Shown: positions 41,091 through 55,913, counted from the stretch's first letter. The stretch is DNA of 64,000 nucleotides from Amoebidium appalachense (GCA_963693365.1 CAVNZM010000016.1:6679029-6743028), one strand, 5' to 3'. Numbers and translations: made by a program. Notes: generated by a model not told the origin, from the letters alone.

Positions 41091-44000
41091 ATGCAGGCAG
41101 AAGACGGGCCCGCGCAAGATCCCATGTTCATGGATAGCGATGACAATTTGGGACCAGGGGGGGAGCTGGGGGACAATGGTTCCAATGAGCCCCCCACCCT
41201 CCAGCCCACCAAAAACAAGAACTTCTGCGTCACCCCACTGCCTCACCATTGGAGATGCAAGAAGGCCCTTGCCCACAACTTTCAGGTTAGTCAAAGGGGT
41301 TTGGGGTATTGTTGTTGACTCCGATCCATGTTCTTATCCCTGTGTATGTGTAAGTATTTGTGCACGGATATATGCTTGTCATGGGCCAACGATGCCTTTC
41401 TGTGTGTGTTTGGTGAGTTTGTTAGTTCCTCGAGCCTGTGATCCCGCACGATTGCGAGTCCCCGTTCATGTGTCATGTGTCTGGGTGTAATAAGGCGCCC
41501 GTACAGCACCTAACATGGATGTCGGGATAGTGTACCTATCAAATATTCGAATCTGTGTATTTGTGTGCTGCTCATGAGTCAGAGGCTAGATGTCACACGG
41601 CTTGAGCATCAGCCGTTGCACTAGTCATTTCTGTTCCTTTGGGGTTTGTAGGCTGTAAGCTTCTCAAACACTAGAGAGGCGAAATGATCAGCCCCTCGGC
41701 TCATCGACATCTCATGCCTGTGCGGTAAAGTTGTAGAGCCCGAGTGGGGGTTTCTTTTCTTTTTTTTTTTTTTTTTTTTTTGGGGGGGGGGGGGGGGGGG
41801 GGGGGGGGGGGGGGGGGTCGTATGTGCACCGAGAATACACTTTTTGCGTTAAATGTGTGGATGGTAGTTTTTGTGTGGATGTATTTTGATTTCGCTGGGA
41901 AGGCCGGGGGGGGGGGGGGGGGGGTTTTTTTTTTTTTTTTTTTTTTTTTTTTTTTTTTTTTTGTCTATCTTTTCTTGCTTTTTTTTTTTCAATTCTTTTC
42001 TTTTCGTTTTTTTTTTTTTGGTTGGGGTGGGGAGGGGGGAAGGGGGGGCGGGGGGGAGCTGTGTGTACGTGTGTGTGGATGTGTGTGCATGTGCGTGTGT
42101 GTGTGCGTGTGTGTGTGTGTGTGGGGAGGGGGGGGGGGGGGGGGGGGGCGTATAGTGCAAAAATTCATTTATGGCACAAATTTGTTCGCAGTTGCAGTGC
42201 GTTCACACGGGTTAATATGAGCGGGATAGTTAAAAATAAAATTATAAAACACGTGAAATAAATAAACAAAAAGCCTGTGGTATAGGGGTCATATTGAGGT
42301 ACAGGCAGAAATTTAAAGGGTTAGAGTCATGTATTTTCTCTGGTGGGGGGGAGGGGGGGGGGGGGAGGGGGGGGGGGGGAGGGGGGGGGGGAGGGGGGAG
42401 GGGGGGGGGGGGGGGATTTTTCCTGCAACAAGTAGTAACTGGTAACCCACGCCAAATCCACTTTTCCCGACCGAGAAACCGATTTCACTGTTTTGCTTGT
42501 TCAACTTTGTTTATCTAATTTATATTTATTTATTTTGATGAACAATAACATATTTTATCTATTTTACCTTATTCAAGGTTGTTTATCTAATTTATTTATT
42601 TTTACACTATGAACAGGTGTTTGCCATGTGCAAGATACCGGATGGCACGGAGGTGCGTGTGCGTGCATACAACGATGAAACACCCGAGGCTGAACTGAAG
42701 AATGCCACGGCATCCATGGAGAGTGGGGTGGCTACGTTTGATGATCTGCGGTTTGTGGGAAGGTCGGGAAGAGGTAAGGTGTGTGTGTGTGTGTGTGTGT
42801 GTGTGTGTGTGTGTGTGTGTGTGTGTGTGTGTGTGTGTTTTGAAGAGGGGAGGGGGGAAGGGGGGGCGGGGGAGGGAGGGGGGGGGGGGGGGGGGATGAG
42901 GGAGAAGGGGATGGGGATGGGGTGGGTGGGCGGGCGAGCGGGTGGGCGGGTGGGCGTGCGGGTGTGTGTGTGTGTGTGTGTGTGTGTGTGTGTGTGTGTG
43001 TGTGTGTGTGTGTGTGTGTGTGTGTGTGTGTGTGTGTGTGTTGTTTGGGGGGGGGGGGGGAGGAAGAGGGGGAGAGAGAAGGGGATAGGGGGGGAGGACG
43101 TGGGTGGGTGGGCGGGTGGTTGGGAGGGTGTGCGTGTGCACATGTGCGCACGCGCGTGTGTGTGTGTGGTGTGTCACCTTGTTTGCATGGCAGCACAGGA
43201 GGCCGAGGGGTGGAGGGGGGGGGGGGGGGGGGGGGGAGGGGGGGGGGGGGGGGGGGGGGGGCTGTGTTCTGTATTATATGGATTGTCATGAAGTGGTCTG
43301 CAGTCTCTGGCAATGATTCTGCAAAAAAAGTATTAATTTTTAATTTTCAGCTTTTATCCTTTGTGTTTTGGCAAACTATCTGTCTGCTATTTGCTGATAC
43401 CCCCATTAACCCGAGCTGGCTCTATATCGTATTTGATGTCCCTGCTCTAAATTAATAAATGAATAAATAAATAATCATGGTTACTAAAAACAACAAAATA
43501 CCCCCCCCCTCCCCCCCCCCCCCCCCCCTTCCCCCCCCTTTTGTTTCGTGCATCTGTAAGCACACACCCTTTTTCGCTGCATGCTGCATTAGTTTGCCCA
43601 CACACATCTTCACCGTTCTGCTCACCTTGCTTGCATTAGCAACCCTGCTCGTCTTTGATCAAGACGGGTTGACCCTCCCAAGTTCAGTTGATGCTGCTGT
43701 CTGAGCTGGAGAGTCGTATATTTGCGGGCTCAGGGGCCGAAACTTAGATGCAATTGATGACTTGGGCCCTGCCTGAGGATGGGCTCTGCTTATGGCGCAT
43801 ACTGTGCGCATGGGTGATGTTGCATACATGAATGTTTGCCTTTGCATGTGTCCTGCACCATGCTTCTCATCGTGTACATGTACTTCGTACCGTGTTCCGC
43901 ATTCAAACCCCCCCCCCCCCCCCCGGCAGGCAAGGCGTTTACGGTTGAGGTGACGGTGATGACAGACCCCCCCCAAGTTTGCTCTCTGAGTGACACGGTT

Positions 44001-53000: not shown

Positions 53001-55913
53001 TTCTCTCGGCTGTCATAACCTGCCTTGCTCCCCCCCCCCCCCCCCCCCCCCCCCCCCCCCCCCCCCCCCGGCCGCCGCCCCCCGCGCCGCCACAAGAAAA
53101 ATAGATAGAAACAAAATTAGGTTTCTGCTCCAGCGGCTAAATAAGGACAGGTGTAACATAACATCAGTTTATTTCCACTTGAATCTACACACTCCCTGCC
53201 ATTCCATCTAAATCTATTTCATCCAGTAGCCTTTGGCGCTGCCTAACCATATTAGGCTAATGACGTTCATCCACCAATAATTGCAGGGCCATGATGTGCC
53301 AGCATGCCCGAGTGACAGAATACCTCCAAAGCAAGGGTGCTCGACTCAACAATCTATTTGCCCCAGTCGCAGTATATCCCAACCCCCCCCCCCCTCCTCC
53401 CCTCCTCCCCCCCCCCCCCCCCCAAAAAAAAAAAAAAAAAAAACCCTCAACCCCACATCCCACGCCCCCCCACCCTCCAACAAACACACCCAAGCACCTC
53501 CCTTTCCCCCCTCACTATGGTCCCTTTCCCCCTCACCTTTTCCCTCACACCTAACTTCATGTTTTCCAGTTCACCACGTGAACCCTTCCTTGGTATTCCA
53601 ACCCCCTCTCCCCCCCTCAACCTCCCCCTCTCCCCGTCTCCGCCCACCTCGGCGCGCCTCACACAAATAAATATACATGGATGCAGTTGACAACTCCCCT
53701 TTTCCCCCTCCCCCCCCCCCCCTCCCCCCCCCCCCCCCCCCCCCCCCCAATTGTCTGAGAAAATACTGCAGCCACCTAAACGCCTGTATGTGTATGTACG
53801 AAGGTTTGTGCAGGGCGGACTTGTGTAGTGATTAGGATTTTTTTCTATCATCAACACTATAGCGCTAGCTGTAGTTTCCTTGATTTCTTTTCAACATGTT
53901 TTAATGCCGTAATTCTCCACACATGTGTTGTGTATGTTAACAACATTATGAGGCACGACCCTTCAATGTTCTGTTCTTTTTCCTTTTCATCTGCTGATTA
54001 TTCAAGTAATTTTCGCTCTATTTCTTTCTAAGATTATTTCTTTACAGGGCCTTGCCATTCCGTCCGTCAGCACACAGCAGCAGGCAGTAAACATGGCGGC
54101 ACAGAAACGAATGTCAATATCGGTAGGCATAGTGCCACGCGCACACACACACACACACACACACACACACACACACACACACACACACACACACACACAC
54201 ACACACATGCACGCACACGCAGGCTGGCACACGCAGGCTGGCACACGTACGCAAGCACGAACGCGCACACACACACACACACACACACGCACACACATCA
54301 CACACACACACACACACACACACACACACACACACACACACACACACACACACACACACACACATGCGCTCACACATGCGCTCACGCATGTCAGTATCGG
54401 TAGCACAGGCGTGGGCATACACACACACACACACAGACGCGCGCAGGCACGCTAGTATATACACACCCACGTCTTGAGAACTGCCCGTACACACTCAAGT
54501 GTCATTCCCTCCACCCCCCCCCCCCCCCCCCCCCCCCCCTCCCCCCTTCCCCTTCTCCCACACTGAACAGATATTTACAAATTTAAAATAGCCCCCCCGG
54601 CCCAGGCTAACACCTGCCTTCCCCCCACAGGATGTGCTATCGACGTTAACTATTGGCAGTAATCATAATCTCCAGAATAATGGTAGGGAGACCCCTTCAA
54701 CCCTCCCCCCTCCCCCCACCCTTCTCCCCCTGGGGTGCACACGCGTGCGTGCGTGTGTGTGTTTGTGCCAAAACGACAAAAAATGCACAAGGGCGCTCAC
54801 AGTCACCAGTGGTTTCCACTGTAAATTTAGACACGGGCATTGTTTTGTGAAGTGATACGATGTAACGTGTTTTGAATTTTCAATGTTTAGATGTTGCAAC
54901 AGAAGAAAGGCGTGTTTGTGCTTACCCGTGAGTGTGCTTCTTTTTGTTCTTTTTCTTTTTTTTTTTTTTTTGAAGGGGGGGGGGGGGGGAGGGGAGGGGG
55001 GAGGGGGAGGGGGGGGGAGGAGGGGAGAGGGGCAGAGGGGGGGGGGGGGGGGGGAGAGAGAGAGAAGGGACCTTAGAAGATGAGCTTTGCGTATGATGCA
55101 TGCTCTTCGTGTGTGCTTTGCAATCGTCATTTTGTCACAGTGTCTATGGTTATGTGTCTTCGTACTCTGAAACCCATTCTACCCCCCCCCCCCCCCTCCC
55201 GGCCCCCCCCCCCCCCCCCCCCCCCCCCCCCCCCCCCCCCCCCTACCGCCCAGGCCTTGCAAGTATGAGTGCATCAAGTTTCAACACTACGGGGGGGATA
55301 TCTACCGGCAGCCTTGATTTTCTTATTAACCCGCTAACAGACCTCACGGGTCTGGCTGCACTGGTAGGTGGAAAATTCGGGAAAATTGGGTGTGAATTTT
55401 GTTTTTTGGGGTGTGGTTTGCAGCGTGTGGATAGTAGGATGGAGGGTTTTGGATGGTTTTTTGGTATGTGATGTGTGAGAGGAACTTGGGGTGGGTTTTG
55501 ATTTGTAGCCAGTGAAACATATGGATAATTGATTAATGGGAGGATGTTGTCACGGTTTGAAACTGAATGGCGATTGGTCACTTGTTTTTTTTACATTTTT
55601 CCCTCCGAGGTTTCTCTCACCACCCCATCCTTCTCCCCCCTTCCCTCCCCCCCCTCCCCCCCCCCCCCCCCCCCCCCCCCTGGTGGATATTATTTAGGTA
55701 GGGGTGCCAGACAGGGCTAATAACGGATAGATAGTACAGCTGCCGTAGAGACGACGAGATAGTTGCTGAGATAGCTTCATTGGGTATCCAACGAGATATA
55801 CCAATGCAGTTTAATGCATAACCCTCCCTTCACCTTTTTTCTTTTCAACGCAGCCTTTGCCAGATTTCACCAACTTGGACAACAAAAACTTCCTCTTGGG
55901 TCGGCCGGCATGA
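41091..55913 (+). CDS. RUNX: Runx-family transcription factor with Runt + IPT/TIG + ankyrin repeats, 696 aa, 18 exons: 41091-41285, 42617-42773, 43930-44082, 45481-45692, 46656-46817, 47473-47505, 47898-47961, 48471-48624, 49276-49344, 49983-50152, 50857-50957, 51516-51641, 52443-52555, 53287-53371, 54048-54122, 54631-54682, 55254-55363, 55854-55913
   Basis: Runt domain unmistakable ([54 protein letters not shown]); 17 GT-AG introns chain in phase without stops; ankyrin [32 protein letters not shown]. Runt call near certain, full fusion about 0.8. Confidence 0.88.
43546..43907 (+). repeat. Poly(C)-ended dispersed repeat, subfamily 2 copy abutting Runx exon 3 acceptor
   Basis: Matches reverse complement of 18779-19138; ends gcattcaaa followed by C-run and ggcag acceptor. 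Confidence 0.9.
46032..46269 (+). repeat. 34-bp minisatellite, about 7 copies
   Basis: Unit ctaacctccccctttccctcccatgcatatccat in tandem, no spacers. Confidence 0.95.

What the first reader, a model, noticed from the sequence alone, without database searches (positions are those of the whole stretch)
41091..55913. Runt-IPT/TIG-ankyrin fusion: a Runx DNA-binding domain on a CAMTA/NF-kB-like chassis
Seen: 18 exons join in phase into 696 aa. The order is Runt domain, Ser/Arg-rich linker with RRSS motifs, IPT/TIG-like region ([34 protein letters not shown], exons 8-10), a helix [13 protein letters not shown], and two ankyrin repeats starting MTALHMA. Known: CAMTA has CG-1+TIG+ANK with a similar ESRVVVVCEKM..GMTLLHLA stretch; NF-kB p105/p100 and yeast Spt23/Mga2 pair an Ig-fold DNA-binding region with IPT and ankyrins for dimerisation and processing; animal Runx has neither and relies on CBF-beta. 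Inference: a pre-metazoan Runx variant that may dimerise or self-regulate through its own IPT/ANK module. I am not aware of this architecture being described, but could not search.
Basis: partly seen in the sequence, partly recalled or inferred. Interest (0 to 1): 0.92.

Follow-up and report, generated by a model that had tools for sequence, protein, structure and literature searches.

The report
Ancestral Runx with IPT and ankyrins
This spliced gene from a single-celled relative of animals joins a Runx DNA-binding domain to a predicted IPT (immunoglobulin-like) domain and two ankyrin repeats; the same layout occurs across unicellular relatives of animals, so animal Runx is likely a trimmed-down descendant that swapped a built-in, probably dimer-forming module for the partner CBF-beta.

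Summary
The gene is real. The 18-exon, 696-aa model reproduces exactly. Spliced RNA contigs confirm junctions 4-5, 5-6, 6-7 and 7-8. Pfam finds Runt and ankyrin. Pfam misses the middle domain, but a model of the Ichthyophonus orthologue matches IPT/TIG folds (Met, plexin, EBF, NF-kB; Z 9.7-11.3).

It is not a one-off fusion. The Runt-linker-IPT-helices-ankyrin order recurs in Ichthyophonus, Chromosphaera, Creolimax, Sphaeroforma, Corallochytrium and Capsaspora. The choanoflagellate Codosiga keeps Runt+IPT only. None of 118 animal Runx proteins has the module. All 11 DNA-contact residues are kept; the CBF-beta face is not constrained and VWRPY is absent.

Best reading: this is the ancestral holozoan Runx, lost stepwise toward animals, with IPT likely serving self-dimerisation (untested). 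No sequence link to CAMTA, Spt23 or NF-kB was found, and p105/Mga2-type processing signals are absent. The main rival is that animals descend from a module-free paralogue. Ten literature searches found no description, but the key 2011 Capsaspora paper was not readable.

The parts
41091..41285 (+). Exon 1: start codon, acidic N-terminus, start of Runt domain (from 41187)
   Evidence: Pfam Runt E 1.4e-3; no in-frame ATG in the 390 nt upstream
42617..42773 (+). Exon 2: Runt core (157 nt, ends phase 1 in the G143-equivalent codon)
   Evidence: Pfam Runt E 1.9e-18; 85% to P0001
43930..44082 (+). Exon 3: end of Runt (K167-R177 equivalents) and basic cluster 44031-44042 (likely nuclear localisation signal)
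   Evidence: Pfam Runt E 1.3e-7; basic cluster after Runt in 8 of 8 unicellular proteins; NLS role inferred
44973..45023 (+). Candidate extra 51-nt in-frame exon, unproven
   Evidence: branch point and pyrimidine tract present, weak donor, shuffle p about 0.15
45481..45692 (+). Exon 4 (alternative acceptor 45517): Ser/Arg linker with conserved RxxSxP(Y) motif at 45603-45623
   Evidence: 3' end joined to exon 5 in RNA; motif counts
46656..46817 (+). Exon 5: linker, second RxxSxP motif at 46776-46793
   Evidence: both junctions in RNA contigs
47473..47505 (+). Exon 6: 33-nt linker exon
   Evidence: RNA contigs X1 and X2
47898..47961 (+). Exon 7: linker
   Evidence: RNA contigs; loose end continues into exon 8
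48471..50152 (+). Exons 8-10 (48471-48624, 49276-49344, 49983-50152): IPT/TIG domain, aa 349-452 (48539-50139)
   Evidence: 59% to P0001; orthologue model matches IPT folds; weak Pfam TIG E 0.13 in the Corallochytrium member only
50857..51641 (+). Exons 11-12 (50857-50957, 51516-51641): two long conserved helices between IPT and ankyrins
   Evidence: helices predicted at low pLDDT; homologous in P0003, z 13, and in Capsaspora and Corallochytrium
52443..53371 (+). Exons 13-14 (52443-52555, 53287-53371): two ankyrin repeats, aa 533-592
   Evidence: Pfam Ank E 4e-7; 64% to P0001
54048..55913 (+). Exons 15-18 (54048-54122, 54631-54682, 55254-55363, 55854-55913): low-conservation tail, no VWRPY, no membrane anchor
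   Evidence: RNA contig length fits

Best explanation
The gene encodes a Runx transcription factor with the order Runt - Ser/Arg linker - predicted IPT - helices - two ankyrin repeats, which is likely the ancestral holozoan Runx and would bind Runx sites as an IPT-linked homodimer without CBF-beta. Shown: one spliced transcript over exons 4-8, the domain order in six other unicellular holozoans, Runt+IPT alone in a choanoflagellate, and no module in 118 animal Runx. Predicted from structure: the IPT fold. Inferred: (1) TGTGGT-type DNA binding, from 11 of 11 contact residues; (2) self-dimerisation through IPT plus the following helices, by analogy with EBF, NF-kB and Mga2, supplying the avidity that CBF-beta supplies in animals; (3) the ankyrin pair as a docking surface for partners, kept in the mature protein; (4) gating of nuclear entry by phosphorylation of linker RxxSxP motifs and 14-3-3 binding; (5) stepwise loss toward animals (ankyrins and helices, then IPT) with gain of VWRPY and CBF-beta. 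My odds: architecture as old as Holozoa 0.9; animal Runx descends from this form 0.65; IPT homodimer 0.55; 14-3-3 gating 0.35.
For: Profile search of 1.84 billion representatives with the IPT+helix stretch gave 12 hits at E<=1e-3. Six of the 7 hits of 600 aa or more are Runt...Ank proteins of Ichthyophonus, Chromosphaera (the two queries), Capsaspora, Creolimax, Sphaeroforma and Corallochytrium (Ank is below cut-off in Sphaeroforma). Codosiga P0131 has Runt (E 7e-36) plus IPT (49.7 bits when left out of the profile) and no helix or ankyrin score; 118 of 118 animal Runx score at most 2.6 bits on all three modules; 115 of 118 end in WRPY, against 0 of 8 unicellular. Fold: Foldseek top hits NF-kB p65 dimerisation domain (E 1.5e-4) and EBF1 IPT (E 1.9e-4); VIA-align Met IPT Z 11.3, rmsd 1.6 over 80; EBF1 9.8; NF-kB 9.7. 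DNA contacts as listed in PMC11345852: 11/11 in six proteins, 10/11 in two. A Runx-like motif is enriched in Capsaspora open chromatin (PMC4877666). CBF_beta is listed as a metazoan gain (PMC3753549 supplement). RxxSxP occurs 10 times in 8 linkers against 1.35 expected, 1 of 5000 shuffles. Mga2 DBD alone did not bind DNA, which the authors attribute tentatively to IPT dimerisation; EBF IPT forms a crystal dimer.
Against: The domain model is shallow (2 sequences, mean pLDDT 59, helices under 50) and is of the Ichthyophonus orthologue, not the window protein. The best-matching IPT domains are those of receptors and enzymes (Met, plexin, amylase), tied within about 1-2 Z with transcription-factor IPTs, so the fold does not itself imply a dimer. 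Capsaspora has two Runt proteins and only one was hit. Runt trees leave the deep order open and have no root; the IPT-helix-ANK tree does not follow the species tree (Chromosphaera groups with Capsaspora and Corallochytrium, 95/95). CBF-face identity (4-10 of 20) is only modestly below the rest of the domain (Fisher p 0.04-0.16 in three proteins); N109 is kept in 6 of 8. The RxxSxP motif was chosen after seeing the alignment, the sequences are related, and Creolimax and Sphaeroforma lack it. The animal set is mostly vertebrate (best 120 of 1074 hits), with two cnidarians and no sponge or ctenophore.
Confidence: 0.6

Rival explanations
1. An early holozoan duplication gave a module-bearing and a module-free Runx; animals kept the module-free copy and lost this whole paralogue, so nothing was trimmed.
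For: Capsaspora has 2 Runt-domain genes (PMC3753549 supplement) and only one was hit by the IPT search; the trees are unresolved and unrooted.
Against: Every unicellular Runx retrieved here has the IPT, though six of them were found through it. The choanoflagellate protein shows the intermediate Runt+IPT state with a shortened 79-aa linker. The intron opening exon 3 falls where the 105-bp second Runt exon of animals would begin (my inference and the PMC2527000 passage).
Confidence: 0.25
2. The IPT-helix-ankyrin block folds as one monomeric scaffold that recruits other transcription factors or co-activators, as the CSL IPT domain binds the Notch ankyrins.
For: TIG sheets serve heterotypic contacts in CSL-Notch, and the CAMTA1 TIG function was unknown (PMC2923972); IPT domains of receptors rank first; the 155-239 aa linker uncouples IPT from DNA, unlike NF-kB.
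Against: Codosiga keeps IPT after losing the helices and ankyrins, so IPT has a role of its own; Mga2 appears to have a similarly long DBD-IPT linker and is thought to dimerise through IPT.
Confidence: 0.25
3. It is a p105/Mga2-like precursor: the ankyrins hold it inactive until the proteasome trims the C-terminus back to IPT.
For: Same domain order as Mga2 (p53-like DBD-IPT-Ank), where the proteasome stalls at a set distance from IPT without a glycine-rich region (bioRxiv 10.64898/2026.08.31.748402). Codosiga resembles a constitutively processed form.
Against: No glycine-rich region (at most 4, 4 and 7 Gly in 25 aa), no transmembrane segment (best Kyte-Doolittle 1.27-1.38) and no PY motif in the three proteins tested; only two ankyrin repeats; IKK and NEMO were not found outside animals (PMC8763368).
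Confidence: 0.15
4. The model joins two neighbouring genes, or the middle region is not an IPT domain.
For: Junction 3-4 was not seen directly in RNA; Pfam and PDB sequence profiles give no significant TIG hit.
Against: Spliced contigs bridge exons 4-8 with about 1 kb more upstream; six independent gene models in other species are colinear; structure searches agree on IPT.
Confidence: 0.02

Closest known systems
Animal Runx (RUNX1-3, Runt, Lozenge)
   Same: Runt domain (PDB profile hits E about 1e-48), 11/11 DNA contacts, basic cluster after the domain, probably a shared intron position
   Different: Adds IPT, helices and two ankyrin repeats; lacks VWRPY; CBF-beta face 8 of 20 identical (G108 and T161 positions changed)
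Unicellular holozoan Runx (Capsaspora CAOG_00880, Creolimax CFRG3640T1, Sphaeroforma SARC_05405, Corallochytrium Clim_evm63s172, Chromosphaera Nk52_evm4s2657, Ichthyophonus Ihof_evm1s313)
   Same: Whole architecture, colinear; their existence as Runx is published
   Different: In the passages read they are treated as plain Runt-domain genes; I found no mention of IPT or ankyrins
Yeast Mga2/Spt23
   Same: p53-like beta-sandwich DBD, long linker, IPT, short ankyrin block (that Runt is a p53-like fold is recalled); feature-space neighbour in the Atlas (0.91)
   Different: No transmembrane anchor or PY motif; DBD is Runt; no sequence-level hit
NF-kB p105/p100
   Same: Ig-fold DBD + IPT + ankyrins; IPT fold match Z 9.3-9.9
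   Different: Long disordered linker between DBD and IPT, no glycine-rich region, two ankyrin repeats, no RHD in Pfam
CAMTA
   Same: TIG followed by a helical stretch and ankyrins (domain list, spacing recalled); Atlas neighbour (0.91)
   Different: Runt instead of CG-1; no IQ-like motif in the three proteins tested; no sequence-level hit
EBF/COE
   Same: DBD + IPT + dimerisation helices; IPT match Z 9.8-10.4
   Different: Different DBD; ankyrins follow the helices here

Membership tests
Runx | Runt domain (PF00853) | tested here: met
Runx | 11 DNA-contact residues R80-R177 | tested here: met
   list from PMC11345852; 11/11
Runx | Binding to the TGTGGT/RCCRCA site | not testable with these tools
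   inferred from residues; Runx-like motif enriched in Capsaspora
Animal Runx | C-terminal VWRPY | tested here: not met
   absent in 8 of 8 unicellular proteins, present in 115 of 118 animal ones
Animal Runx | Conserved CBF-beta-binding face | tested here: inconclusive
   8 of 20 in the window protein against 14-20 in animals, but near the domain background (p 0.16); position list partly recalled
IPT/TIG domain | Ig-like IPT fold | tested here: met
   orthologue model, Z up to 11.3, rmsd 1.6 over 80 residues
IPT/TIG domain | Pfam PF01833 match above cut-off | tested here: not met
   none in window exons, P0001 or P0003; E 0.13 in 1 of 7 rows
Ankyrin repeat | PF00023/PF12796 match | tested here: met
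NF-kB p105/p100 | Rel homology DBD and glycine-rich region | tested here: not met
   no RHD in Pfam scans; no Gly-rich run
Spt23/Mga2 | Membrane anchor and Rsp5-binding PY motif | tested here: not met
   (three proteins)
CAMTA | CG-1 domain and IQ motifs | tested here: not met
   no CG-1 in Pfam scans; no IQ-like motif
CAMTA/Spt23/NF-kB chassis | Common descent of the IPT-ANK block | tested here: inconclusive
   Atlas neighbours 0.91-0.93 but no HMMER hit; no joint tree possible
IPT-dimerising transcription factors | Homodimer through IPT | not tested

The most novel reading that the evidence does not exclude
Runx arose from the same DBD-IPT-ankyrin chassis as Rel/NF-kB, Spt23/Mga2 and CAMTA. 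The last common holozoan Runx was a self-dimerising, phospho-gated NF-kB-like factor; choanoflagellates preserve a Runt+IPT intermediate; animals deleted the module and recruited CBF-beta and Groucho in its place.
Probability: 0.35. Interest if true: 0.88.

Novelty: new variant of a known kind. Interest (0 to 1): 0.76.

Why it matters
Runx is a textbook example of an animal developmental regulator that predates animals, and it is usually described as Runt domain + CBF-beta + VWRPY. If the unicellular proteins carry their own IPT-ankyrin module, this offers an answer to how Runx worked before CBF-beta existed, and makes the animal form a case of domain loss followed by recruitment of a partner. 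It also ties Runx anatomically to Rel, EBF, CAMTA and Mga2. It can be tested directly in Capsaspora or Creolimax, or in vitro.

Tried and rejected
No genome is held for this window, so paralogues and CBF-beta could not be sought in it. Exon 10 alone found no relatives and no Atlas hit. Sequence profiles of the IPT region found nothing useful in PDB. CAMTA1 TIG was not among the 50 rows of either VIA list, which excludes nothing. The full-length model is poor (pLDDT 38); its Foldseek hits were Runt and DARPins and it is not used as fold evidence. Alignment A3 of exon fragments was misaligned and dropped. P0130 (cod, dsRNA-binding repeats, E 8.5e-4) was dropped as noise; P0124, P0126, P0127 and P0129 are unnamed fragments and were left out of counts and trees. 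NCBIfam gave only generic ankyrin matches far below cut-off. RNA over exon 3 could not be obtained, so junction 3-4 stays open. The complex predictor was not available, so there is no verdict on dimerisation. The splice-site matrix was trained in-sample and did not rescore even the candidate exons above its threshold, so its scan for missed exons is weak. Four look-ups of earlier findings returned nothing.
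Full report
Observation. The sequence is an intron-rich eukaryotic locus full of poly-C/G and CA runs. Pfam on 13 single exons finds Runt across exons 1-3 in profile order and ankyrin in exon 13, nothing in exons 8-12. No genome is held.

Transcript evidence. Of 24 runs listed, X1 and X2 (one sample) hold 0.23 and 0.13 of the words. 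Laid on 46620-48070 their contigs are spliced and 99%+ alike: joint 5-6 is listed with GT..AG, exons 6 and 7 are contiguous in two records, and the loose ends are the end of exon 4 and the start of exon 8. One X2 record (1385 nt) runs from 1025 nt upstream of exon 5 into the first IPT strand. In X1, a 1201-nt and a 1289-nt record overlap by 30 nt; the second carries 1189 nt past exon 7 against 1113 predicted, ending at the microsatellite 76 nt after the stop. An unspliced intron-5 record has about 7% of the depth. These runs may be the window's own source, so they confirm splicing rather than giving independent taxonomic support. Junction 3-4 was not seen. Exon 4 has two in-phase acceptors and a 51-nt exon at 44973-45023 is possible but unproven (739 of 5000 shuffles).

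Relatives. Exon 2 retrieved one protein, P0001 of Ichthyophonus hoferi (731 aa, Runt+Ank), colinear with the model. P0001 retrieved 1074 hits, 120 listed: itself, P0003 of Chromosphaera perkinsii (Runt+Ank) and 118 animal Runx. Identity to P0001 is Runt 72%, linker 35%, IPT 59%, helices 43%, ANK 64%, tail 27%; to P0003 54, 18, 28, 28, 41 and 7%. IPT, helix and ANK regions match P0003 beyond all 500 shuffles; linker and tail do not. The window's organism is thus probably an ichthyophonid ichthyosporean (window+Ichthyophonus 97/98; inference). A profile of the IPT+helix stretch against 1.84 billion representatives gave 12 hits: the two queries; Capsaspora CAOG_00880, Creolimax CFRG3640T1, Sphaeroforma SARC_05405 and Corallochytrium Clim_evm63s172, all Runt...Ank; a Codosiga hollandica ORF whose cluster mate P0131 is a complete 460-aa Runt protein; four unnamed fragments; and one cod protein treated as noise. 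No animal Runx, CAMTA, Spt23 or Rel protein was hit. In leave-one-out profiles Codosiga scores 49.7 bits on IPT and nothing on helices or ankyrins; Capsaspora 49/39/94; Corallochytrium 16/56/98; the 118 animal proteins at most 2.6. So the full module occurs in Ichthyosporea (both orders), Corallochytrium and Filasterea, Runt+IPT in one choanoflagellate, and Runt alone in the animals examined (mostly vertebrates, two cnidarians).

Fold. AlphaFold2 on the P0001/P0003 stretch gave eight strands and two long helices (mean pLDDT 59; strands mostly 60-84, helices under 50). Foldseek ranks the NF-kB p65 dimerisation domain and EBF1 IPT first (E 1.5-1.9e-4). VIA-align over 48,161 chains gives Met IPT Z 11.3 (rmsd 1.6, 80 aligned), amylase domain D 11.2, plexin IPT 11.1, EBF 9.8, NF-kB 9.7, NFAT 9.0, Sec5 8.8, above a background near 7.5 (one search agrees). 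The Atlas places the C-terminal block near TIG+Ank clusters including RHD, Spt23 and CAMTA proteins (0.91-0.96), a lead only. Pfam does not call the domain (best E 0.13, Corallochytrium), which may be why it was overlooked.

Functional surfaces. The 11 DNA contacts listed in PMC11345852 (passages) are all kept in the window protein and five others, 10 of 11 in Corallochytrium and Codosiga. On 20 CBF-beta-face positions (some named in PMC2527000 and PMC11345852 passages; the rest recalled) the unicellular proteins keep 4-10 and eight animal proteins 14-20; T161 is kept in 0 of 8, G108 in 1 of 8, N109 in 6 of 8. The drop is only modestly beyond the domain's background. VWRPY is absent in all eight. 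A basic cluster follows Runt in all eight. The linkers hold 10 RxxSxP motifs against 1.35 expected (1 of 5000 shuffles; post hoc; none in Creolimax or Sphaeroforma); that this is the 14-3-3 consensus is recalled. No glycine-rich region, membrane segment, PY or IQ motif was found in the three proteins tested.

Mechanism. The most likely working model is a Runx that recognises the usual site, homodimerises through IPT and the following helices instead of using CBF-beta, docks partners on two ankyrin repeats, and is gated by linker phosphorylation. The dimer step rests on analogy: EBF IPT dimers (PMC2923972 passages) and Mga2, a p53-like DBD-IPT-Ank factor whose DBD alone did not bind DNA (bioRxiv 10.64898/2026.08.31.748402 passages). 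It was not tested. Rivals are a monomeric scaffold role, proteasomal processing, and descent of animal Runx from a module-free paralogue: Capsaspora has two Runt genes (PMC3753549 supplement) and the trees are unrooted and unresolved at depth. CBF_beta is listed as a metazoan gain in that 2013 supplement, on the limited taxa then available.

Literature. Ten searches found no description of Runt with IPT or ankyrins. Term searches in the main texts of PMC5560861, PMC6040629, PMC4739763, PMC6792448, PMC11286789, PMC8763368, PMC4877666, PMC3753549, PMC9381480, PMC10317990 and bioRxiv 10.1101/2024.03.25.586530 (passages only) showed Runx, where mentioned, only as present or expressed. Supplement searches (12 of 16 files for PMC6040629) added nothing on architecture; figures are not visible, and the supplements of PMC2527000 and of bioRxiv preprints could not be read. 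Sebe-Pedros et al. 2011, which first described Capsaspora Runx, is not held and may note the ankyrins, which Pfam detects in the public records; the IPT and the stepwise pattern are less likely to be known.

Verdict. A real feature, confirmed in RNA over the central exons and by six colinear orthologues. It is a Runx family member in an apparently undescribed, probably ancestral architecture: new variant of a known kind, interest 0.76.

Noticed in passing
window 44022-44083, 44190-44251, 44365-44426: The last ~45 nt of exon 3 with its donor site are duplicated twice inside intron 3 (82-85% alike); the copies follow G-runs and have no evident acceptor.
   Followed up: partly
window 46827-47501: An unspliced intron-5 contig in run X1 at depth 10.7 against 147 for the spliced form: retained intron or pre-mRNA.
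   Followed up: no
window 1787-2569 and 9793-10377: A reverse-transcriptase ORF (RVT_1 E 1.7e-4, below cut-off) and an ORF that by eye resembles a tyrosine recombinase (no Pfam or NCBIfam hit): possibly DIRS/Ngaro-type retroelement remnants.
   Followed up: partly
window 3884-4488 / 6201-6805; 10426-10737 / 11252-11559: A 605-nt perfect inverted duplication and direct duplications of 131-237 nt: recent rearrangement or assembly artefact.
   Followed up: no
window 21789-21968 (-), 30936-32672 (+), 62913-63149 (+): Neighbouring exons match DUF2358, PIG-P and an RRM domain; no evident functional link to the Runx gene.
   Followed up: no
window 15154-15918 (-): A 255-aa open frame with hydrophobic stretches and no Pfam match.
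   Followed up: no
P0128 / P0131 (Codosiga hollandica): Two complete ORFs in one cluster: one Runt+IPT (460 aa), one with the IPT part and a different N-terminus (266 aa). If real, an IPT-only isoform could act as a dominant-negative partner; it may equally be an assembly of a retained intron.
   Followed up: no
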